A stretch of DNA of 64,000 nt from Candidatus Heimdallarchaeota archaeon (GTDB lineage Archaea > Asgardarchaeota > Heimdallarchaeia > Heimdallarchaeales > Heimdallarchaeaceae), in NCBI GenBank assembly GCA_018238545.1, contig JABCTC010000003.1, positions 32,001-96,000 of the forward strand. Direction: 5' to 3'. The position numbers were made by a program, and so were the translations under genes. Shown here one piece after another: positions 1 to 51,900 of this stretch. A model generated the notes under the pieces. That model worked only from the letters and a program-made list of their open reading frames with translations. It was not told the DNA's origin and did not search any database. Position 1 is the stretch's first letter; every line of letters starts with the position of its first letter.

Positions 1-839
1 TCAATCTGCTTCATGTTCCAGATAAGTACTCTTCTTCTCGTCCTCCAGCTGTGCTGGGGATAGATTTAGGAATCAATAAACGTGCGGTAAGTGCACTCCT
101 TACACCAAAAGAAACAATCAACCGACATGAGATCAGTTTTTGGTCTGATAAGACACGAAAAAAACTACTAAAGGAAAAAGAAAGAAAAATAGCAGAACTA
201 CAGAAACTTCTAGCTAAATCTAGTTTGACTTTTGGAAAAAGAAAAGAATTTCTTTACCAACTTAAGTCACTTAGAAAAAGATAAAGAACGGAACATAAGC
301 TAACCGACCACACATATGTCAATAAAATCGTCAAGTACATTCTCTCATTAGGAAAGAGGTACGACCTCTTTGTGGTAGTAGGTTTTCCAATTCATATCCG
401 CAAAAGTCATTATCGCGGTAATCTCCGCCCCTATTCTCGTAAAAGTGTCCACAAATGGAATTACAGGAGAATGACAGAATTGCTCAAATTCAAGCTTTTT
501 CTGCATGGCTGGGAAGAGTACAGAATCCTAGCTATTGGTGAATCGTGGACCTCTTCTACCTGTTCTCGTTGTGGCTCCTATCACACTATCCGTCCTAACC
601 AACCTACATTCATCTGCAATATTTGTGGGTATCAACTTAATGCTGACTTGAATGGAGCGAAGAATATAGCTAAAAGACTGATCAAGTATGTTCTACAACC
701 AAAATATAACTCTATTAAAGATCAAGTTAGTGGAAAGTTTTTTCCTCTCAGTTCTTTTCGTGTCTTCCCTGTCCTAAGCCAATGGCTACAGACAAAGCAG
801 AGTCATCTGCTTACTCCTGGAGCTGGAGTGAGTACCTAA
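1..839 (+). pseudogene. tnpB: TnpB-family RNA-guided nuclease (IS200/IS605-type), 5' end outside the window, interrupted by an in-frame TAA at 282-284
   Basis: ORFs 51..284 and 372..839 share one frame and align colinearly with the intact copy at 28301..29779 (LGIDLG RuvC-I, ESWTS..CSRCG and C..CG Zn finger, NADLNGAKNI RuvC-III). The intact copy reads RKRQRTEH where this one reads RKR*RTEH (CAA->TAA). Confidence 0.88.
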
Positions 840-19300: not shown

Positions 19301-20059
19301 ATGAAACTTTCGCAGAAAGATCAAATTATTCTGAAAGAAACACTTACCTACTTAACAACCGATGATGTGGGACGATTGGAACAAGATAACATCACATCTA
19401 TCCAACAATTATTGTTCCTAACAAAGGAAAACAAAACCAGTTCTTCACTCCAACGAAGTAATGTAAAGAAATTCATTCAATTACTTAGTATGCCTTTAAG
19501 TACAATAGACATACAAGAAACAGTTATTAAACAGCTGGAAGTACTCGGCATTAAATTAGTAAAAGATTTTGTTGTTTATCCAGCAGAACCTATGGCTGGC
19601 AAAGTAGACATAAGTTATGTAATGATAAAAAGAATTAAGGGAAGACTTCCTTTGGTTACAAAAAAGAAAGTAAAACAAACTGCCAAAACTTCGACCTTAA
19701 AGAAACCAACAGCTAAAAAATCTGCTACAACTAAGGGAGCTACTCCCGCTAAAAAGCGTTCTTCAACAAAGTCTAAGACCACAAAGAAAACTATAGCTCC
19801 GAAGAAATCAGCAAAAACTCAACAAAAAGCTAAACCAAAGGCTAAACCAAAGGCTAAACCAAAGGCTAAACCAAAGGCTAAACCAAAGGCTAAACCAAAG
19901 GCTAAACCAAAGGCTAAACCAAAGGCTAAACCAAAACCGAAATCCACTAAACAAATGACTTTGATGGATATTAAACCTACTTCCACAAAGAAACCATCTT
20001 CAACTTCAAAAACGAGAAAAAGCTCAAAATCCACTACTAAAAAAGGTGAAAAATCATGA
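7355..20059 (+). CDS. top6B: Giant DNA topoisomerase VI subunit B: GHKL-H2TH-transducer core (~aa 1-540) + ~3500 aa tandem HhH/RadA-NTD-like repeats + Lys/Ala/Pro-rich tail
   Basis: RELVENGLDA, DNGVGV, QTRGRFGLGAK, RYANRIPL, VSTKIPFPETSKE motifs. Upstream GAGGT SD. Directly upstream of and overlapping top6A. One continuous 12.7-kb ORF. Confidence 0.93.
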   Translation: MSDDTRAKKMSAAAFFNDNKAIAGFGNSMRAVFTSIRELVENGLDAAEIRGVNPVISVDLRKLSSREINDLLDVTQYKKLEKHLDFLQLTCRDNGVGVPSNQIADLFGRVLTGTKYGVIQTRGRFGLGAKMCLLHSMSSVDLPARIKSRYFMDDMTHELHLMIDLERNQPIVMEQREYLSGDPNALEEPGVEISITFTGAWRLAKNSVKEYFRQLAIITPYASFDIKVPGDKEGEYEELHYVNVVDDMPSPPQHVKIHPWGCDITQFKSELSSTKAKKMKKFLAEHFMGVTEEIAEDFFQLLEIDPNKSPSNITSKEIRRIVHEGFVKAYQEAKDVKRKRDRIFQFDPPRGDALSPLGAGRLRKGLEKELQPKFVEAVTRPPKAYSGHPFAIEATMGYGGGVNEAAQAKGTTVHDNKIIYRYANRIPLIFGAGNDVITQVVSSIRWNDYGLTRQSDPLAIAVSLVSTKIPFPETSKEYISNVPEIEEEIRLALMQLGRRLKTFLSRAKRRKREHARLSRFVKSAPVIIENLTQILEDENLKFTDFRLETDRISAALAHGTPRKVRLYMPIGKRLFGANIWCPNNIQTTLKNNNVESVAEFLLKDSKELVTILQLTESQVYDIKLRTISELDRDNLSPNFDTKTLVSRLVERRFSSEGERKFISLKDALFRRWIQNVYHYLATDFEKLRNVSGMLEKFFETKKDELLNDYLAKGAKTSKNTILTIDKAIATYAKASDLKKEQLYPPFKYLKSETDNVLGEDLSIEEFLYQTVQPTSINYHPEITRTLIEYLKIVFTHIKNKFPAFATTSITKMQPDWTDGYTKNAFHRRKIKTVGDFLNHSTDDLIDIKELERIMYEQYIELITLNTKSVPLNDFSFVEIQQLKEEENRIKRVLAKHGIKTLAQFLSYPSESILLKKFDTLSALLLKESKFKLFTNLHDTNRIINQSYIKVIPKNVETELVKNQIFTTSTFLAKSSVILKKMGMKKKDIEKAKKELGTPLQNWVDHDEILKKCGIVVLEELFFNDASEYNLTTEESKKYTENIIFLRTPLVFVLPELRSSSYLLTEIGINNIGRFLIWSNTELSDILYLSVNEIKALKKKIAFQKQIQSKEELKKDLVLFSRHYPNLVKYFGNETPSIQDLYYAYQSENFSLNTGFWKKLYKLSELSQQEAVDLVHLYPKNFKDIETVKDALLRLKSRNVETIRQFMELQPEIIESKLSNSKERKVALDLYDKILFRRFEGEQELHKQILLLSEYDELQRNFGSPISRIPELTLEELEKFRSHDILAVHQIFDYTVDEIATLLGRDKGSVQHFMESFTLLRKGTPFFEKADRNRYKSLVSFEFEDLERFSSIEIQSLIQAGYASVDQIFYLTHPLTFSSSILNWNVVDKFRKLLRSPLTLVTWEKSVKLKSFDEVKNKEVEVVDIQISTLTTSQLTVLQNQGISRIIDLLVSEPETLSESLNISLDEAKMLQKDIRIIDTGTDLADLDIFKSEIVDQLEENNILTLEDLYFSTTKSKWRVKEVPWDIIMSFKSVLNLPLAHLSDMLDEDIIVALEGANVKTLLGFILTTPESLMNKTGIPDERFETIKRGLDISDIFSYFSLPSYFLPNLTFQQTEILQENGIKSVAEFVNSSPQKINKLIKVTAKQFREITTALTTQNLQALYDEKGIFAFETKLFDKMEQRQLGRDSIFEFDRFQTIQEIYYTLNRDFYSNNQNLWGKVSAIQKVLLLPLHIFTEISEYALEIMSQNSIDFVYQLLFILDADITDPLLFRTVSTYSSKIIEMRAFHYFSKLPASVYNSSYFKKILKDTDNKSLSDVITDEKIIKDLSAKDKQYLYENYNLTLIRSILELPLRITPYFTRIKKVRREEYKNTKIGDVFDIDLEEHSALSSFYSRLLEENSFNKLISQLTIPISSMGLPRELALKLSKSSIGTLLAFYSTPEKQVSEISGFSQKNIREIKDELKYSNIVSIRVSQAHKIKPSSFASEKQIFDLMGRSISDIESLFYSAEHLGISKCLPIENYKKIKEILSGSIRFIGFLSFDEIRRLEYHNINSIIDFALLSKKELFTITQNPIYKEFHVLDLISFDELSEKRIQAAIPLSLCPSIEEDYLDKIKEIGINSIQDFISRMPEIRESHPHLVKLDIFREVQMYLSSVAYIGLPNESVQKLIYSGVGDILSFITEDPSTISLILGISEKQVEKYSKLAVPSNLVTEVDNKGVLLTEFSALSKGRRNSLLKSGKETVQDLFSSRYQAYSQSNISDVLMSEFIESCNVSLYRIEEIEPEIKAKLSKSEITRIIDLLCSTDAELKKALDGKLPKEFKQIRKGQFTLTKGIPLILNEPLQDIIRELNIEPSNKKVEDMFGFVPEFLLQFTESERIEKDKNLAFLEQIVSFLSLNILSLPLFNTTTKLILWNRGIRHVIELLSTNMNTIDGIPFQVISEVRSFQKEFSLTRSMSETLSPYIDDVLILPAKKQAKFQNYGLTNALLFVDFIPHPIFSFTASEQSILRIVSNNMFKPIAWLSSDMSFKIEDMNLLIQNRAINILSALLLLSDQNDTKVLETLSNKYYKSISTYLNSSILQFSAPEWALQLTDTKIITDSNSLKILKKDNISYLDEFLTLESKFLNNPNLVAEILPKLLSLKSLPISSISDLSPSNIQKLKRSRINNVYEFLVFPAPLLSNLLSISVENVNAIKSSIDLSSLEKTAKLTGLDLELFPELSQDSRTILQRRGCVSLNQASKMDLDLIPLLSEDKAILQNLIAMLFTPTTLIGKILKLTKNEIDELLVQNVCTYADLLELPQKTWPAKIRKSLSDKDSDPTYLIKNLQNLEKFGVPIEKLDLAKSVTKSLVEAGIVTIDHLYYLPIAYVSARSKVKQHILEEIKKKLSYNINFLQDISLTTLSVCYSKDSFTIISCLIYWNGLSKDVRTDLEGSLDSIKLIEETSFIEPLTPTETKLKSIGIFSLRSFILSPQIKKEAGLTTKLLPSLLANIRFLNLDPKQSYRLKKTGFTTVADLLLNTSKTISVKSKLGKNAIDEVINNIKIDNLTSLIKSMEREHLHDAFYLNSNDKAFLKSIGVYSLADLNEYTVFDWFVSKQKIQKIKKKINSLLDTNILYYPGITSKQYAEVVEQFFMKDIFTIKDLMISTTVEQSSDLIEFLTIFSTNKPKIQSQYLTSLSFLKGIEAKDLFKIDVKMEKSATINDLIIALYKNSAELTKKGDDVLKQISYPISISSKLNLDEVNILLSKNILSYGDVLTKPSGYWVAFTPVKLKKKLLEILSTITSKTISNDSSKGVQLSNMKIFDANLKKQLTSNFKTLDEVAHAIRIGDSRILKPLERKITKVLSTPISLLKLPKISIKSWKRLLSTASTLEEFYLLTDQELVKIFSSTKEEIVKLKNNLGPDNIVLPPRIKENKIFTSSDVKELSDNSISNYIQIFDKSAEKADLSTSLKDKIAFYKEFDVKQLDENLEETILLKDFVILESYADSLELSRKQKESVKNLSSLLLSRGTYLSKIFDIDSNKDKSGLLNTTIEYFLLIEKYQPKIYSKIIESLPGNISSQFNSLLSYLNRSPILLSGPNLKNINKIVKLPYENVKDLLLLSKEKLVQEIDDTAVQRNIRGLTLSILKSLNSKLTSIPKEFLTAYELNQLKKENIYSFEEALVFNRKSTSKKSKTWLLSEKVRKISTINTLSLSSYLPSSKIQERLLKLKISNVYELVYYCQNTEKEEDLSLCQTVIQSVSSINIEEIEIKERKRFAKFFNDPDILSYLRSQDIRTFGPLVHYLEQLEDETITPEIEKILSVMRFPISVLSENKKLVQKLESEGYNQVIDLLLPAKIQNSLKSNITENQRKVLASLINMFYQEIYQTILKNHYPVSKLTLIDDILQKELIKAGYATVAHLKSPDIIIADTSKLNLQQISRIVRLFDASTYYLSEMLKDYPQSAFVLYSNGINTLWDIFLTGSKEISKITGISVRQVNSYLSTINPQAMKLSQKDQIILKETLTYLTTDDVGRLEQDNITSIQQLLFLTKENKTSSSLQRSNVKKFIQLLSMPLSTIDIQETVIKQLEVLGIKLVKDFVVYPAEPMAGKVDISYVMIKRIKGRLPLVTKKKVKQTAKTSTLKKPTAKKSATTKGATPAKKRSSTKSKTTKKTIAPKKSAKTQQKAKPKAKPKAKPKAKPKAKPKAKPKAKPKAKPKAKPKPKSTKQMTLMDIKPTSTKKPSSTSKTRKSSKSTTKKGEKS
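9050..19650 (+). repeat. Degenerate protein-level tandem repeat (~55-60 aa helical units resembling RadA N-terminal/HhH domains)
   Basis: Recurring consensus 'P-I-x-x-L-x-x-L-[ST]-x5-L-x3-[GN]-I-x-[ST]-[IV]-x-[DE]-[LF]-L-x5-[EL]-x3-L-x-I-S' e.g. SPISRIPELTLEELEKFRSHDILAVHQIF, LPISSISDLSPSNIQKLKRSRINNVYEFL, MPLSTIDIQETVIKQLEVLGIKLVKDFV. Confidence 0.75.
19829..19936 (+). repeat. 12-bp tandem repeat GCTAAACCAAAG x9 encoding (AKPK)9
   Basis: Eight perfect units plus a final GCTAAACCAAAA, read directly. Confidence 0.97.
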
Positions 20060-21465
20060 GTTCAGATTGCAAATTCATTATTAGTAATTCAACAGTTTTA
20101 CCTGCTATTGAGAGAACTGCTTCTTTTGACAAGGATATTCTAGTTCGAGAGATATACAGTTGGGCCAGAGAAACATTTGACCTCAAACGAGGGTCATATG
20201 TACTATTTTTAAGAAGCTTCAAGAAATGGCACAAACTTGAGCCTACAAGAAAATTATCTAGATACAATCTACAAAAAGATACCATGAGTATTAGTGTAAA
20301 AAACACAGTTTCAATCGACAAACTAAAAATCGTTAGAGAAGAATTGAAACATCTAACTGAATACTTGATGCCTTTCGGTGTTACTCACGTAGCAACTAAA
20401 AATTCTCAAGAAACAAACAATCTTCTTGTAGAATATTCTTTAGATTTCCTAAATCAAGCAATGTTATCACCTAATGATGCATCTTTTCAGATTCCATCTA
20501 GAGCTGGTACAAATGTAGGTTTTGATGAGGATCAAGAATTAGTTCTTATTGGTCGTCAAATGATTGATAGACAATTTAGAAATTTAGCTTCAGTTAGTTC
20601 TGTCGAACAAATGACCATTGTTATGAAACTTATTCATGATATTCTATCCAGAGATATTCACAGTACTAAAAGAGATATATTTTACATGAATGTAAATGCA
20701 TTTGATAAACAGTCTGTCTCTGATTCTCTCATAGAAGATGTTGGCGCAATGTTACAGGTTACTCGTTCATCTTTGAATATTAGTGCTTCTTCTAAAGGTA
20801 TTGTTGTTGGGAGGATTAGTTTCAAAGAAAAAGGAGATCTCATAAATTGCCGTGCAATAGGGGCTGGCAAAGCTATTTCCCCTAATATTGATGATATAGA
20901 AAACATGGAAACTGATGCAGAGATGTGTTTAGTTATTGAGAAGGATGCTGTCTTCAATAGGCTAGCTGAGGATCAATTCTATGATTATGTCCCAAGTATC
21001 CTTGTAACAGCAAAAGGTCAACCAGATATAGCTACAAGACAATTTTTGAAGAAGATAAACGATGATCTCAATCTACCTATATTTGCTGTAATGGATGCTG
21101 ATCCTTATGGGTTCGAAATTATGAGAGTATATAGTGTAGGGAGCAAAGCATTGAGTTTTGAATCAAGTCATTTAGCTGTTCCCAGCATTAAATGGTTAGG
21201 TTTACTACCTAGTGATCTCGCTCCTGAAAGTGGATTTGATATTCCGAGAAGTGCTTTAATTAAAATGACTTCCAAAGATCTTCATCGATCTAAACTGATG
21301 CTAGATGAGGAATTTGTTAAAAGAAAGCCAAAATGGAAAGAACAACTAGAAATACAAATAGCAACTGGTTTAAAAGCTGAAATACAGGCTCTTAACGCAA
21401 GAGATCCACAATATATTACCAATTTTTATCTTCCACAAAAAATCGAGGCTGGAGATTTTATCTAA
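20056..21465 (+). CDS. top6A: DNA topoisomerase VI subunit A (Spo11 family) with N-terminal ubiquitin-like domain
   Basis: TKRDIFY (catalytic Tyr), IEKDAVF, TAKGQPD, MDADPYG TOPRIM motifs, KAEIQAL. ATGA overlap with top6B and GGTGA SD. The N-terminal ~80 aa contain LEPTRKLSRYNLQKDT (ubiquitin: LEDGRTLSDYNIQKES). Confidence 0.95.
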   Translation: MSSDCKFIISNSTVLPAIERTASFDKDILVREIYSWARETFDLKRGSYVLFLRSFKKWHKLEPTRKLSRYNLQKDTMSISVKNTVSIDKLKIVREELKHLTEYLMPFGVTHVATKNSQETNNLLVEYSLDFLNQAMLSPNDASFQIPSRAGTNVGFDEDQELVLIGRQMIDRQFRNLASVSSVEQMTIVMKLIHDILSRDIHSTKRDIFYMNVNAFDKQSVSDSLIEDVGAMLQVTRSSLNISASSKGIVVGRISFKEKGDLINCRAIGAGKAISPNIDDIENMETDAEMCLVIEKDAVFNRLAEDQFYDYVPSILVTAKGQPDIATRQFLKKINDDLNLPIFAVMDADPYGFEIMRVYSVGSKALSFESSHLAVPSIKWLGLLPSDLAPESGFDIPRSALIKMTSKDLHRSKLMLDEEFVKRKPKWKEQLEIQIATGLKAEIQALNARDPQYITNFYLPQKIEAGDFI

Positions 21466-21525: not shown

Positions 21526-22032
21526 TTATCCCTTTAGAAGTACAATCTCAATTGTGGAAACTGTTTTTGGACCGTATCCTTCTATATCGCTTGGTAATTC
21601 TTCAGATCCTATAACCACTTTATCTATTACTACACTATCTTGTAGAAATTTTCTGCGAGCAATTTCAGCAACATCAACTGCTTTAGAGATTTGTCTCCCG
21701 CGGGCTTGAATTGCGCATTTATCGCGTTTATTTAATATAGTAACTGCAACTAAAACATAACTAATTGTTGGTTTTTTTCCAATGTAAATAATATGACTCT
21801 GCTCTCTGTATTCAGTTTTAGGTTTAGGTTTAGGGGTTTCTTTGGGAGCTTCCTCTTTGACTTCCTCTCTGACTTCCTCTCTGACTTCCTCTCTGACTTC
21901 CTCTCTGACTTCCTCTCTGACTTCCTCTCTGACTTCCTCTTTGACTTCCTCTTTGACTTCCTCTTTGACTTCCTCTTTGACTTCCTCTTTGACTTCCTCT
22001 TTGACTTCTTCCTTAGCTACTTTCTTACTCAT
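21526..22032 (-). CDS. albA: Alba chromatin protein with N-terminal acidic EEV[KR] repeat extension
   Basis: IYIGKKP..SYV, IQARGRQISKAVDVAEI, IGSEEL, VSTIEIVL. ATG at 22032 is preceded by an AGGTG SD. Confidence 0.93.
   Translation of the reverse strand: MSKKVAKEEVKEEVKEEVKEEVKEEVKEEVKEEVREEVREEVREEVREEVREEVREEVKEEAPKETPKPKPKTEYREQSHIIYIGKKPTISYVLVAVTILNKRDKCAIQARGRQISKAVDVAEIARRKFLQDSVVIDKVVIGSEELPSDIEGYGPKTVSTIEIVLLKG
21856..22011 (-). repeat. 12-bp tandem repeat GAGGAAGTCA[A/G]A x13 encoding (EEVK)6(EEVR)6(EEVK)
   Basis: Read directly; two homogeneous blocks differing at one base. Confidence 0.97.
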
Positions 22033-22204
22033 GAACATCACCTATTTTTCTTTTGTCTGTCAAATGTTTCAGTATAAGTAGTATCAAAAAGGTATTGCAA
22101 CGTTAAAAATATTTCCTATTACATTTGTGACAGAAAAGAACAGATAAATACATTAAAGTAGACTACATTACGGGTTTGATATCACCAAAGGATGTTTAAT
22201 AGAT

Positions 22205-24001
22205 TTGAAGCCTCAACGTTTACTAATTGATTCTTTAATAATTGTGCTAAGCATATCATTGCTTACTGCCCTTTCTACTACATTTAGGTGGTTTTTACCC
22301 CTCTATGAAAGTTACATTATAATCTTATATATTTTCGTTGGGATAGGTTTTATCATCTATGGGTGGTTATTAAGACGATGGTTTATTAAGAAGAATCTTG
22401 ATGAGAAAGATGGTTCATTAATACATTTACTGAAGATAATTCTACCAGTATTTAGTTTAATATTGATTTTTACCTTAGTAATTGGTTTATCAAGTCTATC
22501 AGAGATTATTCTCCTTTCAATGATATCTAGTTATTTGCTAAGTATATTTCAAATCTTCATAATATCGATTCTAGTTGGGATTTTCGCGTTTACTTTTATC
22601 GAGAATAATTTAGGAATTCTTCTTTTCAAAGAACCGGTTGCAGAACAAGAAACCGAACTGGGTTTTGGTTTAATGAGAAAACAGCTAAAAAATCTCATGG
22701 ACAAACAATGGAAATATGGTATGATTATTCTTTGGCTTTCTATTATGATTGCAAACATGCTGGTTTTTTTTGTATATCCATCTATACCTTCAAGTGATGT
22801 GGCATTTGGACTACAAAGTCTACATTTTAGTTTTCCAAATATTGCGTTTACATTTAATCCAGAAACAGGCTTTTATCAAGAATTTTTTTCTAGTGTTGCT
22901 CTCCCCTCATCAGCATTGCTAAACTGGAAGTTAATTCAATCTCTCATCAGTCTTACTTTTCTAGGCTTGCTTGTAATGCTAATATATCTACCTCATTCAA
23001 AGCTCCTAATGAACAAAAAGAAGGTTGATGAAAATACAAACAATATAGAGAAAATTCAAGAAAGTGATGAGAAAATAGTTGCTGTTGTAACTTCTTTAAC
23101 CGCTCCTGAAATTATTGAGCACTTTGATGATATAGACCCTGAAATTCTTGCTTATAAAATTCTGTCTCCATTGTCTACAAAAGAATACTTGCCTTCAAAT
23201 ATAATAAATCCTAAACCAAGGAGAAAGTTCTCTAAACTAATAAACAGAATGAAGAATAGTGATGTTATCCCAGTTATGAATTTAGCGAGCTTAAATCTTG
23301 TTGTTGCGGTTTATATAGTTAGTTTATTTCAAAGATTGGGAATAATAACAATTATTGTAAATGATCTGTATCAAGATTCATATGCTCAATTAACACATCT
23401 TTACTGGGCTGGTTTGGCCGAAGAAATATCTTATCGTTTTCTTATTTTTGGTGTCCCATTGTTTATCATCTATGGAGTAGTTTTTCTATTTATTTTCATT
23501 TTAAAGAAGACATTAATCAAAGAGAAGAAAGATGAAGATCTTTCAAGATTTGCATTATGGGTTAAGTCTAGAACACCTATAAACCCCTTACTTTATTTGA
23601 GTGGAAGATGGAAAAAACTGAGGATTCTTGACATTATGTTACTATTATTATCGTCATTTGGTTTTGGTTATGCTCACTACCAGTTTAGCCCAGATTACTG
23701 GGGTACATGGAAAATATTTCAAGCTGGTGTAGCTGGACTTATTTTTGGCTATGCTTTCTGCAAATACGGATTACACGCTGCAATAATTTTACATACAATT
23801 AATGATTTTGTCATAGGAATGATTGTAACTCCTAATCTTGGACTTTTGTTAGATGGTGGTATTCTATTTATGGTTATTATTTTTGCTGGAACGTTAGTTT
23901 TACTAAGTTTAGTGGCAAAGGCACTAACAGTATCTTTTAAATTCATAAATACAACATTAAAAAGAACTCAACCAATTACTGATACCTCTAAACAAAAGTG
24001 A
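22205..24001 (+). CDS. Multi-TM CPBP (Abi/Rce1-like, CAAX protease type II) intramembrane glutamic peptidase
   Basis: AGLAEEISYR (EExxxR), FGYAHY (FxxxH), AAIILHTIND (HxxxN). Many hydrophobic helices. Confidence 0.85.
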   Translation: MKPQRLLIDSLIIVLSISLLTALSTTFRWFLPLYESYIIILYIFVGIGFIIYGWLLRRWFIKKNLDEKDGSLIHLLKIILPVFSLILIFTLVIGLSSLSEIILLSMISSYLLSIFQIFIISILVGIFAFTFIENNLGILLFKEPVAEQETELGFGLMRKQLKNLMDKQWKYGMIILWLSIMIANMLVFFVYPSIPSSDVAFGLQSLHFSFPNIAFTFNPETGFYQEFFSSVALPSSALLNWKLIQSLISLTFLGLLVMLIYLPHSKLLMNKKKVDENTNNIEKIQESDEKIVAVVTSLTAPEIIEHFDDIDPEILAYKILSPLSTKEYLPSNIINPKPRRKFSKLINRMKNSDVIPVMNLASLNLVVAVYIVSLFQRLGIITIIVNDLYQDSYAQLTHLYWAGLAEEISYRFLIFGVPLFIIYGVVFLFIFILKKTLIKEKKDEDLSRFALWVKSRTPINPLLYLSGRWKKLRILDIMLLLLSSFGFGYAHYQFSPDYWGTWKIFQAGVAGLIFGYAFCKYGLHAAIILHTINDFVIGMIVTPNLGLLLDGGILFMVIIFAGTLVLLSLVAKALTVSFKFINTTLKRTQPITDTSKQK

Positions 24002-24006
24002 AGAAC

Positions 24007-24591
24007 ATGAGCTATGGACAAAAATTATTCCTTAAAGTAATTTTAGCTGGAGAAGCGGAAGTAGGAAAAACAAGTTTAAGACGTTCATATCTTGGAGAAG
24101 GATTTGTCAAAAACCATCTTCAAACAATCGGTGCTGATTTTGCTTCATTACCAAAAACAATCAAAGATTATAACGTTCTTTTTCAGATCTGGGACGTAGC
24201 AGGACAAGATATTTTTGAAAACGTCAGGATGATGTACTATAAGGGGACTCTTGGAGCTCTAATGGTATTTGATGCTACAAAGATTGCTACATTTAGAACA
24301 TTAGATCGTTGGATAAAAGAGCTTGAGAAAGGTACAGAAAGAGGGATTGTTCCATTCTTTATACTTGGTAATAAGATGGATTTAGTTACTTCTGCAAAAA
24401 AAACCAAGCTAAAAGCAGAAGTCACTAAGTATATAGCTGCATTAAACAAGAAGTATTCTGATAAGGGATTCACCGTAGAGTATATTGAAACCTCTGCAAA
24501 AACAGGTGAGAATGTCCATTCAGCTTTTGAGCAATTAGGTGTTAAAATTATAGATTACATTCAGCATAGAAAGAAGATGAGGGGGAAATAA
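24007..24591 (+). CDS. Rab/Ras-like small GTPase
   Basis: G1 GEAEVGKTS, G2 TIG, G3 WDVAGQ, YYKG, G4 NKMD, G5 ETSAK. The ORF track also allows a GTG start at 23998 overlapping the CPBP stop. Confidence 0.93.
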   Translation: MSYGQKLFLKVILAGEAEVGKTSLRRSYLGEGFVKNHLQTIGADFASLPKTIKDYNVLFQIWDVAGQDIFENVRMMYYKGTLGALMVFDATKIATFRTLDRWIKELEKGTERGIVPFFILGNKMDLVTSAKKTKLKAEVTKYIAALNKKYSDKGFTVEYIETSAKTGENVHSAFEQLGVKIIDYIQHRKKMRGK

Positions 24592-24592
24592 A

Positions 24593-26947
24593 TTGAGTTT
24601 AGAGGAAATTAGAAACCTCATAATAGCTGATAAAAGCAATGAAATTAGACTTAATAACATCAAAGTCTATCAGCATTTAATAAAATTACTTAAGGATACG
24701 GAAGATTATATTAGAAAAAAAACTACTTCAATTATATTTAATTCTGATTTTGTTCCAACAGAGAAAATTATTGAGGAATATCTAAGTGATCCTGACCCCT
24801 TACTTAAGGACATAATTGTCAACAAGTTTCATTTTTTTGTTCCAATTTTATCGAAATATCTTGTTCAAGATAGAAGTTTCAAACCAATTTCAGAAATTAT
24901 CAATTCAATGAAAACTAAAACTCTGCACGATGCAATAGCGAAAGCCTACAAAATTACACCCGTGCTAGCATCTTTAACAGAGCTATCAATTAGAATATGT
25001 CATTCTTCACTAGCTCAACAAGAAGCAACAGTTATTTCTTTTCATTTAATTACTGAACATGCAAAAGAGGTTAAAAGAATACTTATTTTCGGATTCAAGC
25101 AAGTAGAACCAATCTATGCAGAACTTGTTTTGCTAACAGTCACTTTGTTTCCAGAATTAGCCACTTTAATAGAAAAACAAATACGCGATGTTGTAGTGAA
25201 ATCTAATTCAGAGGAACAAATAAAATATGCATCAATTGCTCTTATGAACCTGCAAGATCCTAAAAATGCAGACGTGCTAATCACAAGACTCGCAAATAAA
25301 GAAGATTCTCTTGACACAAAATTATCGATTATAGAATCACTTGGAAACTTAGGTAATCAAAAAGCTAGTCAAGTATTAATTAATCAATTCTCTAAAAATG
25401 ATACTCTTGCATATTATTCAACTCGATCTCTTGCAATGCTTGGAGATAGTGTTCTACCTTTGCTCATAAAAGAGCTAGAGCATGATAGCAAAGTTCCTTA
25501 CATTATTGAAACTATGAAGCGCATTGGTGATACTAGTTACGATTATTTAATGTACGCTCTCAATAAAGGAAAAGGTAACGTTCGAAAAAATGCAGCTCAA
25601 TGTCTTACACTTGTCATGAGCCAGAAGTATGGATATGAAGGTGCAATACGCTTACTTACTACTCAGCTCGCAGGAAAAAACACAGCAATTGTGGAATCAG
25701 TTACTCAAGCGCTGTTAACCTTAGGTACTCCATCGATTAGGGTGTTAATCGAAGAGTTGGCAGATGATGACCTAAAACTAAGGAAAAATGCAACTGAGGT
25801 TTTACAATATTTTGGTCACAATAATATAGAACTCACATTAGATGGTTTATTGGAAACTGACATTACGCTTGGAGTGAAACTTGGTATTATCCTTTACATG
25901 TATTATCCAAATGATGAAATGCAAAAATTAGGTTATGGTTTTGCTATTACCAAGAACAAGATACGGGATAAAGACGACGTAACATATGAACTGATTTTAA
26001 AAGGTTTGAAGGAACTCGATCCAGATATCCGCGAAAAATCATGTGAATTACTTTATTACTTTGGAACAAAAGCAGTGCCAACACTTTCTTCAGTTTTATC
26101 TGATCCCAACATACATGTTAGACGGAAAGCTGTAGGGTCTCTTCGGAAACTAAAAAATAAACGTGCTCTTATCACCTTAATCAAAGGTGCTAAAGATAAC
26201 GATGATATAATTGCAGAAATATCAACACGAGCACTGGGAGAACTGAAAGATCCTGGCGTGATTGATGTAATAGTTAACAATATGAAGCGTTCAAAAACTT
26301 TAGTCAGGGATGCCGCTGTATATGCCGCAACACAAATAGGTTCCCCTATAGCAAAGAAACTTTCAGCTCAGCTTAACGCGAATAATCAGTACTTAGTTAA
26401 AGCAACGATAACTGCTTTGAGTAAAATGGATTGTAAAACACTGAAAGATATGTTATCTAATTTGCAAAATGCTGATGAACGTTGGTTTTCAAATATGAAG
26501 AAAGTTGTCCAAAAGATGGGTCCTTCAGCTGCCCCTACCCTACAATCTTTGCATAAAAAGGCAAAAAATGAAAAAGCTAACCATCGATTACTCATTTTAC
26601 TTTCACTATGTAAAGATACTACCATAATCCCCAACTTGATTCAATTGATACTTGAAGATAAACAGAAAACTGGTATTGTAGGTCTAAATAATTTTGGAGA
26701 AGATGGATCAGAGAAAATTGCCGAAGTGTTACTAGATGCACCTGCTAAAAACAGAAAATTGTTCGTTGAAAAATCTAAAGGATTAGACGGAGAACTAGCT
26801 GTAGCTTTAGTTTCAGCATTTAAGAAAGAGAAAAAGCTGAAATCTCTTATTAACTCAATGTTGAAAGTTCACAATAGATCAATCAGAAAATACTGTCAAA
26901 CTAAAGAAATGAAACATGAAAATTTCATAGAAAATTACAGAAAATAA
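24593..26947 (+). CDS. HEAT-repeat (alpha-solenoid, PBS-lyase-like) protein
   Basis: Repeats such as LSDPNIHVRRKAVGSLRKL, LADDDLKLRKNATEVL, IESLGNLGNQKASQVLI. Confidence 0.85.
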   Translation: MSLEEIRNLIIADKSNEIRLNNIKVYQHLIKLLKDTEDYIRKKTTSIIFNSDFVPTEKIIEEYLSDPDPLLKDIIVNKFHFFVPILSKYLVQDRSFKPISEIINSMKTKTLHDAIAKAYKITPVLASLTELSIRICHSSLAQQEATVISFHLITEHAKEVKRILIFGFKQVEPIYAELVLLTVTLFPELATLIEKQIRDVVVKSNSEEQIKYASIALMNLQDPKNADVLITRLANKEDSLDTKLSIIESLGNLGNQKASQVLINQFSKNDTLAYYSTRSLAMLGDSVLPLLIKELEHDSKVPYIIETMKRIGDTSYDYLMYALNKGKGNVRKNAAQCLTLVMSQKYGYEGAIRLLTTQLAGKNTAIVESVTQALLTLGTPSIRVLIEELADDDLKLRKNATEVLQYFGHNNIELTLDGLLETDITLGVKLGIILYMYYPNDEMQKLGYGFAITKNKIRDKDDVTYELILKGLKELDPDIREKSCELLYYFGTKAVPTLSSVLSDPNIHVRRKAVGSLRKLKNKRALITLIKGAKDNDDIIAEISTRALGELKDPGVIDVIVNNMKRSKTLVRDAAVYAATQIGSPIAKKLSAQLNANNQYLVKATITALSKMDCKTLKDMLSNLQNADERWFSNMKKVVQKMGPSAAPTLQSLHKKAKNEKANHRLLILLSLCKDTTIIPNLIQLILEDKQKTGIVGLNNFGEDGSEKIAEVLLDAPAKNRKLFVEKSKGLDGELAVALVSAFKKEKKLKSLINSMLKVHNRSIRKYCQTKEMKHENFIENYRK

Positions 26948-28083: not shown

Positions 28084-28320
28084 ATGAGTTATTTTTCCCA
28101 CTTTCCCCATAGTGAGGAAGGTGGAGAGCAATTTTGAGGACTCTTCCCAACCCAAGAACGTACAAGGTAGCATCGCAGCAAGCAGTAGCGTAAGGGGGTT
28201 CAAGCTCTGGAATTACACCTCCAACACACAGTGTTAGCGGAGGTGAACGGGTTCATCTCCTCTCCGGGACTCATTTCTGGAGGCAATGTTGTTGAGCACC
28301 TTAGGTACTCACTCCAGCTC
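28084..28320 (-). ncRNA. Putative omega-RNA scaffold of TnpB copy 2 (guide would be the flank, reverse complement of ~28064-28083)
   Basis: Conserved with 820-1056, with compensatory changes in stems (CACCTCC...GGAGGTG vs CACCTTC...GAAGGTG). Confidence 0.7.
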
Positions 28321-29779
28321 CGGGGGTAAGCAGATGACTCTGCTTTGTCTGTAGCCATTGGCTCAAGACAGGGAAAACACGAAAAGAACTGAGAGGGAAA
28401 TATTTTCCTGTAAGTTGATCTTTTATTGAAGTATACTTTGGTTGCAGAACATATTTGATCAGTCTTTTAGCTATATTCTTCGCTCCATTCAAGTCAGCAT
28501 TGAGGTTATACCCACAAGTCTGGCAGGTGAATGTAGGTTGGTTATGACGAGTAGTGAGATAGGAACCACAGCGAGAACAAGTAGAAGAAGTCCATGATTC
28601 ATTGATGGCTAGTATCCTGTGTTCTTCCCAGCCATTAAGTGAGAGCTTGAATTTGAGTAATTCTATCACTCTCCTATAATTCCATTTGTGGACACTTTTA
28701 CGTGTGCTCGGTTTTTGGTTTCCCCTATATTGACTCTTACGGATGTTATGGGGGAAACCTACTACCACATGGAGATCATACCTCTTTCCTAAGGAGAGAA
28801 TGTACTTGACAAGTTTGTTGACATAGGTATGGTCGGTTAGCTTATGTTCCGTTCTTTGTCTCTTTCGGAGTAGTTTAAGTTGATAAACAACTTGTTTTCT
28901 TTTTCCAAAACTCAAACTAGGTTTAGCTAGAACCTTTTGCAGTTTAGAGGTTTTTTGTTCAGTTTCCTTTAGCAGTTTTTTTCTTGTCTTATCAGACCAA
29001 AATCTGATCTCATGTTGGTTGATTGTTCCTTTCGGAGTTAGAAGCGCACTTACTGCACGTTTATTGATTCCTAGATCTATCCCCAGCACAGCTGGAGGAC
29101 GAGATGAAGAATATTTATCTGGAACATGAAGCAGGATGAAATGTACCCACCATTCCTTTTTCTTGGGAGAGTATAGTACTTCTAGAGCTTGTATTTTCCC
29201 TTGGTGGATTTTGTACTCGTGATAGGGTGAACAAGCCAGAGGTAACCATAGTTTCTCGTGATTGCGAGTGTTATTCTTCTTTGTATCTAAGGAGTCTCTT
29301 ATCCCCACCCACCATCGAGCGATGGAGTTTGAAGGAGTACAAGTAAGAACAAATCTCTTCTTATTCGCTGATTGTGTTCGTGGTATTTTCTTTGGTAAGG
29401 TTTTTTTTGTAGGGGAAGAGTTGAGTGCTTGTTGGCTGTGATAAATAGCTGTAGCATTGTCTCTACATTCTTGTAGTTCATCATGAGAGGAGCGAGGAAA
29501 GCGCCTCTTCAAATCATGTCTAACCTTAGGACGAGATGCATGTGTAGTATTTTTTGTTGTTGTCAAGGTAAGTTGATCTAGTTTAACTTTATTCACCTTT
29601 TTCTTCCCACTTTTTCCACTGATAAGGTGATCTTCATTATGGTAAATGACCTTAAGAAAATGGTGAATGGTTCTTGTATCTCTCCCTGTAATCTGTTCCA
29701 ACCTTCTCTGTTTACGAGCTGTGAGCACTTCTGTTTTAATTCTCGCTTTTACAGTTGTTCTCACTCTACTTCTCGTCAT
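28301..29779 (-). CDS. tnpB: TnpB-family RNA-guided endonuclease with rearranged RuvC-II
   Basis: LGIDLG, VVVGFP (no canonical Glu), INESWTSSTCSRCG, CQTCG, NADLNGAKNIA. Highly basic, 492 aa. Confidence 0.9.
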   Translation of the reverse strand: MTRSRVRTTVKARIKTEVLTARKQRRLEQITGRDTRTIHHFLKVIYHNEDHLISGKSGKKKVNKVKLDQLTLTTTKNTTHASRPKVRHDLKRRFPRSSHDELQECRDNATAIYHSQQALNSSPTKKTLPKKIPRTQSANKKRFVLTCTPSNSIARWWVGIRDSLDTKKNNTRNHEKLWLPLACSPYHEYKIHQGKIQALEVLYSPKKKEWWVHFILLHVPDKYSSSRPPAVLGIDLGINKRAVSALLTPKGTINQHEIRFWSDKTRKKLLKETEQKTSKLQKVLAKPSLSFGKRKQVVYQLKLLRKRQRTEHKLTDHTYVNKLVKYILSLGKRYDLHVVVGFPHNIRKSQYRGNQKPSTRKSVHKWNYRRVIELLKFKLSLNGWEEHRILAINESWTSSTCSRCGSYLTTRHNQPTFTCQTCGYNLNADLNGAKNIAKRLIKYVLQPKYTSIKDQLTGKYFPLSSFRVFPVLSQWLQTKQSHLLTPGAGVST

Positions 29780-48945: not shown

Positions 48946-51900
48946 ATGACTGCAATCGAATTAACTAAAAATGCTTTAATAGTTTTAGAAAAACGCTATC
49001 TGTTACGCGATGAAAACAAGAAACCGTTGGAAACACCAGAAGGGTTGTTTAAACGCGTAGCGGATTTCATAGGAGAAACAGATGAAGAAAAAGAGAAATT
49101 CTTTGAATTGATGGCCTCACTAAAGTTCCTTCCAAATTCTCCTACGTTAATGAACGCAGGCACTAAGCTAGGAATGTTGTCGGCTTGTTTTGTCCTTCCA
49201 GTAGAAGATGATATGACATCGATATTTGATGCAGTGAAGCATGCAGCTTTAATTCAACAAGGGGGAGGCGGGACAGGTTTTAGCTTCAGCAAAATTAGAC
49301 CAACAAATGATGTGGTTAAGACAACTGGAGGAGTAGCTTGTTTCCCTTCATCTGTTCGCATTCATACAGATAAAGGATTAATGAAAATAGACGATATAAT
49401 GAAATTTAATGGCTCAATCAAGGCTCTTACTCATAAAGGTTTTCGCAAAATAACTAACAAATATGAAAATGGAATAGCTACAATCTATGAAGTAGAAGTT
49501 TCGAATGGTTATGTTTTGAGAACAACTTCTAATCATAAATATTCAACGATCAAACAAGGTAATATAATCTTAAAACCTTTATCTGAACTTAAAGAAGATG
49601 ATCAACTACTTCTTCTTGCAAATGAAGTGGAAGAAAACAGTCCTAGTGTCATAGCATTAACAACTAAAATATCTGAAAATGAAGATTATTCAATCGAACT
49701 AGATGAAGATTTAGCCTATTTGATAGGTCTAACCTACGCTGATGGAAATATTGTAAATGATGGTCGTCATTATTCTATCAATATTTCTTTAAATATAAAT
49801 CAGAACGATGTAATTGACAAAATTAGAAATATTTCTAAAAAAAGATTTGATTATGATATCAAGGAATACAAGAGGGAAAAATTTAACAGAGTAGAATTAA
49901 GAATTCATGGAAAAAAATATGTGAAACTTTTAGAAGAGAACCAACTTCTAAAAGAGAAGTGTGAGAAAATAAAAATTCCTGAGAAAATATTTCAGAGCCC
50001 ATTTAAAGTTGTTTGCTCATTTATTGCTGGCTATTTTGATGGAGACGGTAATGTTGGAACGGATGGTAGAATAAGTATCAAAACAGTTTCTAAGCAAATG
50101 AGTGATGATTTTGCATTAATAGTTACAAGATTGGGTGTTTTGACTACTAGTTTTCGGGATGAATCTAATTTTGTAACTAGAAATAACAAGGTGTCATACA
50201 GACTATCCATTCCTACAGCAATATTCAAAGAAAGGTTTGTACGATACATCTCTAAATATTCCATGAAACTTCGAGACTATGAATTAAAAAAAGGATCGAC
50301 AAATAGAAAGTTTTCATATCCATTCAACATTCTTCAGAAAATAAGTAATCCAAAAACAAGAGCTAAAATCTCAAAAACCATAATTCCATATAATAATAAA
50401 GTTACAACTAGAAAAGCTCTTAGAAGATTGTTAGATGAAAACGAGATCTCTAATCTTTCTCAAAAAGAGTTACTATATATAGAAAAACTAGACAAATTAT
50501 ATCCTGTTAAGATAAAAAGAATTACAGAAATAGGAAAAGAGGCAGTTTATAATCTAGAGGTTCATGAGGTAAATCGTCTTTCTGCAAATGGTTTTTATGT
50601 TTCCAATTCGGGACCAATTTCTTTTATGGAAGTTTTCAATGCAGCAACAAATACAATAAAACAAGGGGGGTGTGTTGCTACAGATAGTTTGATCCGTACA
50701 GATACAGGTTCCATACCAATTGGAGAGCTCCTTAACTGTCCACCTTTAAGTGATAATCCTACTAAATCCCTAGTATATGATGGCGAAGATTTTAATCATG
50801 CATATATTTCCATGGACAATAGCATCGCTGAAGTAATAAAAATAACCACAGATATAGGTATAGAAATAAAACCAACTTACAACCATCTTATTGCATCCAT
50901 AAACGAGGAAGGTGATTTTGTTTGGAAGGAAGCAGAAAATCTAAAGGTGGGTGATTGGTTAGTTATCTCATTAGATGGGCACTGTGGGAGCGATGCTTTT
51001 CTACCTTCCATCAAAAAACAGCATCATAATGCTAATCCGATAGTTATTCCAGAAAAAATAACACCTGAACTTGGAGAGATTTTAGGTTTATACATGGCAG
51101 ATGGTTGTATCAGTACGCAAGGAAGAATAGTTTTCAGTTTAGGCAATAAGGATCCTGACTTAATTCAAAGGATTAAAGATCTTATGATAAAAACATTTAA
51201 CCTTCCTGTGGGCATGGTTGATGATAAGAACACTTATTCTGATTTATTCTTTTATTCTAAAGATTTATGCAAATACTTTGAGAAAATGAACTGGAAGAAA
51301 ACCTCTTCAGCTGATGCTTTTGTTCCACAAATCATATTTCAATCCTCTATTTCTGTTGCTAAAAGCTTCATTAGAGGTTTGTTTTCTGGCGATGGGGATG
51401 TACATGTTGATGGTTATCCACGTTATCACTCAATTTCAGGGACTTTAGTGAAAAAACTTCAGCAATTATTGCTTGGTCTGGGAGTTGTTTCCTCAATTTC
51501 GTTAAATAAAAACCGTTTAGGAAGTTTTGGAGACAAACCAATTTATTGTCTCTCCATTGTTCCTGAGAGGAGCTTGAAAATCTTCAAGGATGAGATAGGT
51601 TTCGCAGTTAGTAGAAAAAATAATCTCCTAAGAGAAAGGTTTCCTCAGAAAGCATTTGAATATGTGGACTATATTCCACATCAAGGTTCTAAATTAAAAC
51701 AAAAGTATAACTATGTGGGAGCTGGAACTAATAAGGGTATAACTAAACGAGGGGCAGATAAGGTATTCTATAGAGCGATCTATCATTACATCTCAAAATC
51801 CCCTAATTCATACAGAAATATTACAAGAAAGAGACTTCTCATATTATTTGAAAAATTCCCCTTTTTGAGGGAAGATTCACATTTCAAAGAAATTTCGAAT

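What the first reader, a model, noticed from the sequence alone, without database searches (positions are those of the whole stretch)
20056..20305. Ubiquitin-like domain fused to the N-terminus of Topo VI-A (Spo11 homolog)
Seen: the first ~80 aa precede the Top6A core and contain LEPTRKLSRYNLQKDT (nt 20236-20283), matching ubiquitin LEDGRTLSDYNIQKES. The surrounding beta-beta-alpha-beta pattern (KFIIS..ERTASFD..VREIYSWARETF..YVLFL) also fits talin-F0/RA-type beta-grasp domains. A GGTGA SD and the overlap with top6B support this start. There is no C-terminal GG, so this is an integral UBL rather than a conjugatable one. Inference: it may dock Topo VI to the proteasome/Cdc48 or a small GTPase, or help clear trapped Topo-DNA adducts. 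I know of no described Spo11-family protein with a fused UBL.
Basis: partly seen in the sequence, partly recalled or inferred. Interest (0 to 1): 0.85.

Follow-up and report, generated by a model that had tools for sequence, protein, structure and literature searches.

The report
Ubiquitin-fold domain fused to Top6A
In this Asgard archaeon, the DNA-cutting subunit of topoisomerase VI (the relative of meiotic Spo11) really does begin with a built-in ubiquitin-shaped domain; it arose once, always comes with a giant partner subunit, appears in no paper I could find, and its job is untested.

Summary
Confirmed. ORF 20056-21465 is the only Top6A found in this Heimdallarchaeaceae genome (92% complete), and its catalytic residues are intact. 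Residues 1-84 are an integral ubiquitin-like (UBL) beta-grasp domain. AlphaFold pLDDT is about 90, structural matches are ubiquitin/SUMO/ISG15-type (Z 10-12.6), and three homologues pass Pfam's ubiquitin cut-off. The quoted 16-aa motif alone is not significant. The start is real: the SD is conserved and dN/dS upstream of Met77 is 0.04-0.2. There is no di-Gly. The fusion marks one clade (100/100): Heimdallarchaeales, Hodarchaeales and one Sifarchaeia copy. It was not found in Gerd-, Njord-, Thor- or Lokiarchaeia, or in the eukaryotic Top6A/Spo11 sampled. In all 43 loci that show the partner, Top6B is a 2058-4304-aa helix-hairpin-helix (HhH)-armed giant. Every carrier family also has a second type II topoisomerase. 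A hydrophobic patch at the Ile44 position is conserved. Most likely the domain is a protein-docking module at the A/B elbow of a specialised Topo VI, with the Top6B arm as the leading partner. A Cdc48/proteasome role is possible but unsupported, and a GTPase role is unlikely. The scan found this before in other genomes (e1-5455316, e1-5423518).

The parts
20045..20049 (+). Shine-Dalgarno-like GGTGA, 6 nt before the Top6A start
   Evidence: GGTG/GGAG-type SD before the same ATG in 13 relatives
20056..20307 (+). Integral ubiquitin-like beta-grasp domain, residues 1-84, no di-Gly
   Evidence: AF2; Foldseek/VIA; profile searches; dN/dS 0.04-0.2
20206..20208 (+). Phe51, inferred equivalent of ubiquitin Ile44; with Leu15, Val49 and Trp58 it forms a conserved hydrophobic patch
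   Evidence: F in 72/80 aligned rows and hydrophobic in all; register inferred from ungapped alignment with ubiquitin-length members such as P0105; coordinates not inspected
20299..20301 (+). Lys82, Lys/Arg in all rows (ubiquitin Arg72 position), followed by x-x-Val/Ile instead of Gly-Gly
20308..20397 (+). Helix 88-98 and the strand after it (residues 85-114); counterpart present in UBL-less Asgard Top6A
20602..20781 (+). TP6A_N winged-helix domain with invariant catalytic Tyr210 (nt 20683-20685)
   Evidence: Pfam E 2e-21; invariant in 83 sequences
20923..21444 (+). TOPRIM domain with invariant Glu295, Asp347, Asp349
   Evidence: Pfam E 2e-57
20056..21465 (+). Whole UBL-Top6A gene, 469 aa, the only Top6A found in the genome
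7355..20059 (+). Giant top6B (4234 aa): GHKL and transducer core, about 3600-aa HhH-repeat arm, K/A/P-rich tail; its stop overlaps the Top6A start

Best explanation
Shown: Top6A is made with an integral ubiquitin-superfamily domain (residues 1-84). It was fused once onto a eukaryote-like Asgard Top6A, the donor probably being an Asgard ubiquitin-family gene, and it has been kept by purifying selection together with a giant HhH-armed Top6B. Inferred: the domain is a non-catalytic protein-docking module. In Topo VI the Top6A N-terminus packs against the Top6B stalk, so the UBL sits at the outer A/B elbow where the arm begins. Its conserved Ile44-type hydrophobic face (Leu15/Val49/Phe51/Trp58) most likely clamps the root of the Top6B arm or a dedicated partner there. 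That would orient a long DNA-binding arm for a specialised (decatenating or chromosome-organising) Topo VI, while gyrase or a second ordinary Topo VI handles routine supercoils.
For: Fold. Translated and selected: dN/dS 0.04-0.2 for codons 2-76, and a conserved SD. Single origin: UBL-Top6A cores form one clade, 100/100. Asgard-ubiquitin donor: the two best other hits of the UBL profile in this genome are its own ubiquitin-like genes (19 bits against at most 8 for 2000 shuffles), and the best non-self Atlas structure match is an Asgard ubiquitin-like cluster. Coupling: in 43 of 43 loci showing the whole partner, Top6B is 2058-4304 aa (one split by a frameshift). The first ~250 aa of the arm are alignable across UBL lineages but not found in Gerdarchaeales Top6B, which is 1113 aa and pairs with a UBL-less Top6A. 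The conserved patch is hydrophobic, and the net charge ranges from -7 to +12, which fits protein binding better than a fixed DNA role. Second type II enzyme: GyrA in 54/55 genomes of the UBL-bearing Heimdall families and in 0/5 Gerdarchaeales; Sifarchaeia lack gyrase but carry a second small Topo VI pair about 3 kb away. This fits the specialisation idea in PMC9348778. Thorarchaeia put HhH repeats at the same Top6A N-terminus, so this position repeatedly takes accessory modules.
Against: No binding partner is shown. The co-occurrence reflects one evolutionary event, so it has no statistical weight and could be hitch-hiking within the operon. The UBL is the least conserved part of the protein (column conservation 0.25 against 0.63-0.67 for the catalytic domains). 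The patch could instead pack on Top6A's own helix 88-98; pTM 0.86 of the full chain hints that AlphaFold places the UBL on the Top6A body. Gyrase alone does not predict the UBL (Loki 51/54 have gyrase and no UBL).
Confidence: 0.48

Rival explanations
1. The UBL is a built-in handle for the ubiquitin machinery (Cdc48, proteasome receptors or a JAB protease). It acts as a permanent mono-ubiquitin mark that lets trapped Top6A-DNA adducts be unfolded and degraded, as Cdc48/Wss1 do in yeast.
For: The Leu8 and Ile44 positions are kept hydrophobic and Arg72 basic. The genome has two Cdc48, four E2-like and two JAB genes and a GG-ending ubiquitin. Shuttle-type UBLs (Dsk2, Nub1, midnolin) are among the tied structural hits. 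24/80 members weakly hit the Npl4 UBL model. The yeast precedent is PMC10308373 (abstract only).
Against: No UBX FPR loop. The Val70 position is 60% Asp/Glu and the beta3-beta4 hairpin is longer in most members. Other Asgard lineages have no UBL on Top6A, although from my own knowledge many of them have ubiquitin systems. It does not explain the strict pairing with giant Top6B.
Confidence: 0.2
2. The UBL is an extra DNA-binding element that extends the G-segment path or grips a crossing, playing the part that N-terminal HhH repeats play in Thorarchaeia Top6A.
For: Mean net charge is +4.3, with basic residues favoured at positions 34, 38, 56, 57, 82 and 83. The RNA-binding SF3A1 UBL is among the tied hits (Z 11.2). 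Thor has HhH repeats at the same position. Surfaces beyond Top6A bind the G-segment in M. mazei Topo VI (PMC5922973).
Against: Charge is not conserved (down to -7), and the best-conserved exposed residue is hydrophobic. The enzyme already has dozens of HhH modules.
Confidence: 0.14
3. The UBL is only an internal structural or folding aid for Top6A, packing on helix 88-98 or helping co-translational assembly, with no outside partner.
For: UBL pLDDT is higher in the full chain than alone (about 90 against 80), and pTM is 0.86. The genes are translationally coupled (ATGA overlap).
Against: Other Top6A proteins fold without it, and it does not explain the link with giant Top6B.
Confidence: 0.12
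4. The domain is an RA/talin-F0-type effector module that binds a small GTPase.
For: Weak Pfam FERM_f0 hit for this protein (E 0.003, below cut-off). A Ras-family gene lies 2.5 kb downstream.
Against: Only 7/80 members hit FERM_f0 and 2/80 RA_2, against 27/80 for ubiquitin. The beta-2 edge residues are variable. The downstream genes differ among the distant relatives whose genes were listed.
Confidence: 0.04
5. Annotation artefact: the real start is Met77 and the upstream stretch is not protein.
For: An in-frame Met exists at 20284.
Against: About 140 homologues keep the extension in frame. Met77 is Met in only 17/80 rows and has no SD. dN/dS is far below 1 upstream of it, and the stretch has a confident fold.
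Confidence: 0.01

Closest known systems
Canonical archaeal Top6A (M. mazei 9O0G/2Q2E, S. shibatae 2ZBK, M. jannaschii 1D3Y)
   Same: Residues 115-468 superpose (Z 27-36, rmsd 2.3-2.8 A); catalytic Tyr and TOPRIM acids are invariant; the gene is paired with top6B.
   Different: It has an extra 84-aa UBL plus a ~30-aa helical segment at the N-terminus, and its partner Top6B is 4-8 times normal size.
Conserved Asgard Top6A, sister to eukaryotic Top6A/Spo11 (Feng et al. 2025, PMC12680538)
   Same: Single-copy Asgard Top6A that groups with eukaryotic Top6A and away from the other archaeal-type sequences in my tree.
   Different: The main text never mentions ubiquitin (supplements not held). The eukaryotic Top6A/Spo11 sampled lack the UBL and fall outside the UBL clade.
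Integral (type II) ubiquitin-like domains of eukaryotes: TBCE/TBCB, USP11/15, Dsk2, Nub1, SF3A1, Rad60 SLD, FERM F0
   Same: Same five-stranded ubiquitin-type beta-grasp (Z 10.4-12.6, rmsd about 2 A), no di-Gly, used as an interaction module.
   Different: Archaeal and fused to a topoisomerase. No single eukaryotic family is the clear match, because the hits are tied.
Asgard free ubiquitin-like modifiers
   Same: Best paralogous matches of the UBL profile in this genome; nearest non-self Atlas cluster.
   Different: Those end in GG or AG and sit next to E1/E2-like genes; this one cannot be conjugated or cleaved in that way.
Accessory domains at the Topo VI A/B elbow (Ig-like C-terminal domain of Top6B in gyrase-bearing archaea; PMC9348778)
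   Same: A lineage-specific add-on in genomes with a second type II topoisomerase, proposed to specialise or localise Topo VI.
   Different: That domain is on Top6B and is Ig-like. The paper's text on these extensions describes neither a UBL on Top6A nor a 2000-4300-aa Top6B.

Membership tests
Top6A/Spo11 family | Winged-helix domain with catalytic Tyr | tested here: met
   PF04406 E 2e-21; Tyr210 invariant
Top6A/Spo11 family | TOPRIM domain with Glu and DxD | tested here: met
   PF21180 E 2e-57; E295, D347, D349 invariant
Topo VI holoenzyme | Partner Top6B with GHKL and transducer domains | tested here: met
   Adjacent gene; PF09239 E 5e-54, weak PF02518 hit, GHKL motifs visible
Topo VI holoenzyme | ATP-dependent strand passage | not testable with these tools
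   needs biochemistry
Ubiquitin-like (beta-grasp) superfamily | Five-stranded beta-grasp fold with central helix | tested here: met
   AF2 topology; Foldseek E 1e-5; VIA Z 10-12.6 over 75-83 residues
Ubiquitin-like (beta-grasp) superfamily | Sequence homology to the ubiquitin family | tested here: met
   profile-to-ubiquitin E 4e-5; three homologues above the PF00240 cut-off; the window protein alone is below it
Conjugatable (type I) ubiquitin-like modifier | Gly-Gly after strand 5, free or cleavable | tested here: not met
   the aligned rows read K/R-x-x-V/I into the next helix, with no di-Gly column
UBX domain (Cdc48/p97 adaptor) | R...FPR motif in the strand 3-4 loop (from my own knowledge) | tested here: not met
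   loop consensus is L-R/K-x-x-K-K-W
Proteasome-shuttle UBL (Rad23/Dsk2 type) | Leu8/Ile44/Val70 hydrophobic patch | tested here: inconclusive
   Leu15 and Phe51 are hydrophobic, but the Val70 position is 60% acidic; register inferred from alignment
Proteasome-shuttle UBL (Rad23/Dsk2 type) | Binding to proteasome receptors | not tested
RA / FERM-F0 GTPase-binding domain | Profile match and conserved basic beta-2/helix surface | tested here: inconclusive
   FERM_f0 below cut-off, 7/80 members; beta-2 variable; structure tied with other UBLs

The most novel reading that the evidence does not exclude
The UBL is a permanent ubiquitin mimic that couples a Spo11-family DNA-cutting enzyme to the Asgard Cdc48/proteasome or another ubiquitin receptor. 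That would be a prokaryotic link between ubiquitin signalling and topoisomerase-DNA adduct control. The fusion would also be a rare genomic change uniting Hodarchaeales with Heimdallarchaeales to the exclusion of eukaryotic Top6A/Spo11.
Probability: 0.18. Interest if true: 0.88.

Novelty: new variant of a known kind. Interest (0 to 1): 0.62.

Why it matters
I found no paper describing a Top6A/Spo11-family protein with a ubiquitin-fold domain. It shows an Asgard ubiquitin gene being reused as an integral interaction domain, a very eukaryotic habit, on a core DNA enzyme in the lineages closest to eukaryotes. With the giant HhH arm it defines a distinct, expressible Topo VI variant whose UBL-deletion and F51A mutants are simple to test. 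It also gives a shared character bearing on the Hodarchaeales-sister versus Heimdallarchaeia-sister debate (PMC10307638, PMC12222021). Eukaryotic Top6A lacks the UBL and is rejected as sister to the Hodarchaeales-type UBL copies (p-AU 3e-5). This is one gene only, and it is open to transfer and long-branch artefacts.

Tried and rejected
The complex prediction of the UBL against Top6B 341-840 plus Top6A 85-469 gave no answer (score 0.25, mark 0.32), so it is evidence neither way. Covariation on 145 sequences (effective number about 54) gave only lineage-driven pairs and was discarded. The 16-aa motif is rejected as proof on its own. The ESM Atlas feature search scored under 0.9, a lead only. 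The search for stand-alone copies of this UBL returned only Top6A fragments. No RNA holder was listed, which says nothing about expression. The Met77 start is rejected. Gyrase directly beside the operon does not hold for this window or family: gyrA is on another contig, though it is adjacent in some Hodarchaeales-like loci. Literature searches pairing Asgard, Top6A/Topo VI/Spo11 and ubiquitin found nothing relevant. The library lacks most subscription papers, and an ESM Atlas cluster of this family is already auto-named 'ubiquitin-like protein'.
Full report
Observation. The ORF at 20056-21465 (+, 469 aa) starts with ATG, 6 nt after GGTGA, and overlaps the stop of a 4234-aa top6B as ATGA. Pfam places TP6A_N at residues 183-242 and TOPRIM at 290-463. 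Solved Top6A structures align from residue 114-115. It is the only Top6A, and the neighbour the only Top6B, found in this 91.8% complete genome; the closest named homologues are Heimdallarchaeaceae.

The extension is real protein. About 140 distinct homologues of 460-496 aa carry it. An SD precedes the same ATG in 13 relatives, and codons 2-76 have dN/dS 0.04-0.20 in eight pairs, against 0.01-0.05 for the core. Met77 is Met in only 17 of 80 rows. Contigs from other sequencing runs span the junction without joints.

It is a ubiquitin-type domain. AlphaFold gives strands 4-11, 18-25, 48-54, 57-60 and 77-83 and helix 30-41, with pLDDT 84-96. Foldseek's best hits are ubiquitin (E 1.4e-5). VIA gives tied matches to TBCE, Nub1, ISG15, SUMO, Dsk2, USP11, SF3A1, UBXD7, ubiquitin and talin F0 (Z 10.4-12.6). 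The family profile finds ubiquitin at E 4e-5, and three homologues pass the Pfam ubiquitin cut-off. In this genome the profile's next-best hits are the free ubiquitin-like genes on contigs C21 and C114, and the nearest non-self Atlas model is an Asgard ubiquitin-like cluster. An Asgard ubiquitin-family donor is therefore the simplest origin (inference). There is no Gly-Gly and no UBX FPR loop.

Surface. By ungapped register with ubiquitin-length members, Phe51 is the Ile44 equivalent, Leu15 is Leu8, Ser80 is Val70 and Lys82 is Arg72. This is an inference: HMMER alone pairs Phe51 with Phe45, and I could not inspect coordinates. Phe51 is Phe in 72/80 rows and hydrophobic in all, although a few Sifarchaeia rows are probably misregistered. 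Leu15 is 85% hydrophobic, Val49 74%, Trp58 85% and Lys82 100% basic, while the Val70 position is 60% acidic. Net charge averages +4.3 but ranges from -7 to +12. This looks like a conserved but non-canonical binding face.

Distribution. In 250 Asgard genomes, strong UBL matches (E<1e-15) occur in 22/24 other genomes of this family, 14/14 of the other families of its order, 15/17 Hodarchaeales-type genomes and 3/5 Sifarchaeia. There are none in 5 Gerdarchaeales and none in the other families searched. Among the best 150 cluster representatives from 1.8 billion proteins, only Asgard UBL-Top6A cover the N-terminus; the eukaryotic Top6A and Spo11 among them lack it. Trees of the core alone give the UBL proteins as one clade (100/100), within the eukaryote-like Asgard Top6A and with eukaryotic Top6A outside. 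Forcing eukaryotes together with the Hodarchaeales-type copies is rejected (p-AU 2.6e-5).

Partners in the genome. In all 43 loci where the whole partner is visible, Top6B is 2058-4304 aa with HhH repeats; one is split by a frameshift. The first ~250 residues of the arm are alignable across these lineages but not found in Gerdarchaeales, whose Top6B has a shorter HhH tail (1113 aa in all) and whose Top6A has no UBL. Thorarchaeia instead carry HhH repeats on the Top6A N-terminus. Every UBL-bearing family has a second type II enzyme: GyrA in 54/55 Heimdall-type genomes, or a second small Topo VI pair in gyrase-less Sifarchaeia. Gerdarchaeales have no gyrase in 5 genomes searched, and Lokiarchaeia have gyrase but no UBL. 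All of this rests on one gain, so it suggests but does not prove a functional link.

Mechanism. The Top6B stalk connects to Top6A (PMC5922973), and from my knowledge of 2ZBK/2Q2E it does so through Top6A's N-terminal helices. The UBL therefore lies at the outer elbow where the arm starts. I rank docking of the arm root or a dedicated partner at 0.48, a Cdc48/proteasome handle at 0.2 (the machinery is present), DNA binding at 0.14, a purely internal structural role at 0.12 and GTPase binding at 0.04. None is shown.

Comparison and novelty. The catalytic core is an ordinary Top6A, and the UBL is an ordinary integral beta-grasp; the combination is what is new. Papers on Asgard Top6A phylogeny, Topo VI distribution and Topo VI-gyrase co-evolution do not mention it in the text I could search, and targeted searches found nothing. 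An automatic database name already hints at it, and this scan reported it in other genomes. Verdict: real, a new variant of a known kind, interest 0.62.

Noticed in passing
L101:5784-7913, L102:13459-15786, L103:555-3089, L104:13467-15683 (family f10, probably Thorarchaeia): Top6A of 709-844 aa with an N-terminal array of HhH_5 repeats in Lys-rich linkers, at the position the UBL occupies; P0135 and P0136 (746 and 950 aa) look similar.
   Followed up: partly
L105-L107 (Gerdarchaeales): Top6B of about 1115 aa with a ~600-aa HhH tail, paired with a UBL-less Top6A, in genomes with no gyrase found; a possible intermediate state.
   Followed up: partly
L099, L137, L138 (Borrarchaeum/Sifarchaeum): Two Topo VI pairs about 3 kb apart in the same orientation (giant UBL type and a small 387+557 aa type), separated by a ~970-aa gene of unknown function.
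   Followed up: partly
L117, L118 (family f13, Loki-like): Top6B of 1100-1148 aa with a large insertion before the transducer and a Rho_N-like hit in the tail.
   Followed up: no
L140:7914-8816: A 300-aa ORF without Pfam match between a 2058-aa top6B and UBL-top6A; perhaps the split-off end of the arm.
   Followed up: partly
window 19654-20059 (+): K/A/P-rich Top6B tail with AKPK repeats and a QMTLMDI motif; repeat number varies between strains (18-nt deletion in run X3).
   Followed up: no
own genome C59:5279-9136: GyrA (1286-aa frame) has a ~432-aa insertion with intein-like ends (C...HN-T) right after the catalytic-Tyr motif; gyrB lies directly upstream.
   Followed up: partly
own genome C122:706-1773: 356-aa protein with three weak CDC48_N-like (double-psi barrel) matches; a candidate Cdc48-related adaptor.
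   Followed up: no
window 48946-54951 (+): 2001-aa ribonucleotide reductase with several inteins carrying LAGLIDADG endonucleases.
   Followed up: no
window 21526-22041 (-): Alba protein with an N-terminal acidic EEVKE/EEVRE repeat, convergent with top6A.
   Followed up: no
window 23998-26947 (+): Ras/Rab-like small GTPase directly followed by a 784-aa HEAT-repeat protein.
   Followed up: no
window 372-839 and 28301-29779: Two TnpB/Cas12f1-like TNB-domain ORFs.
   Followed up: no
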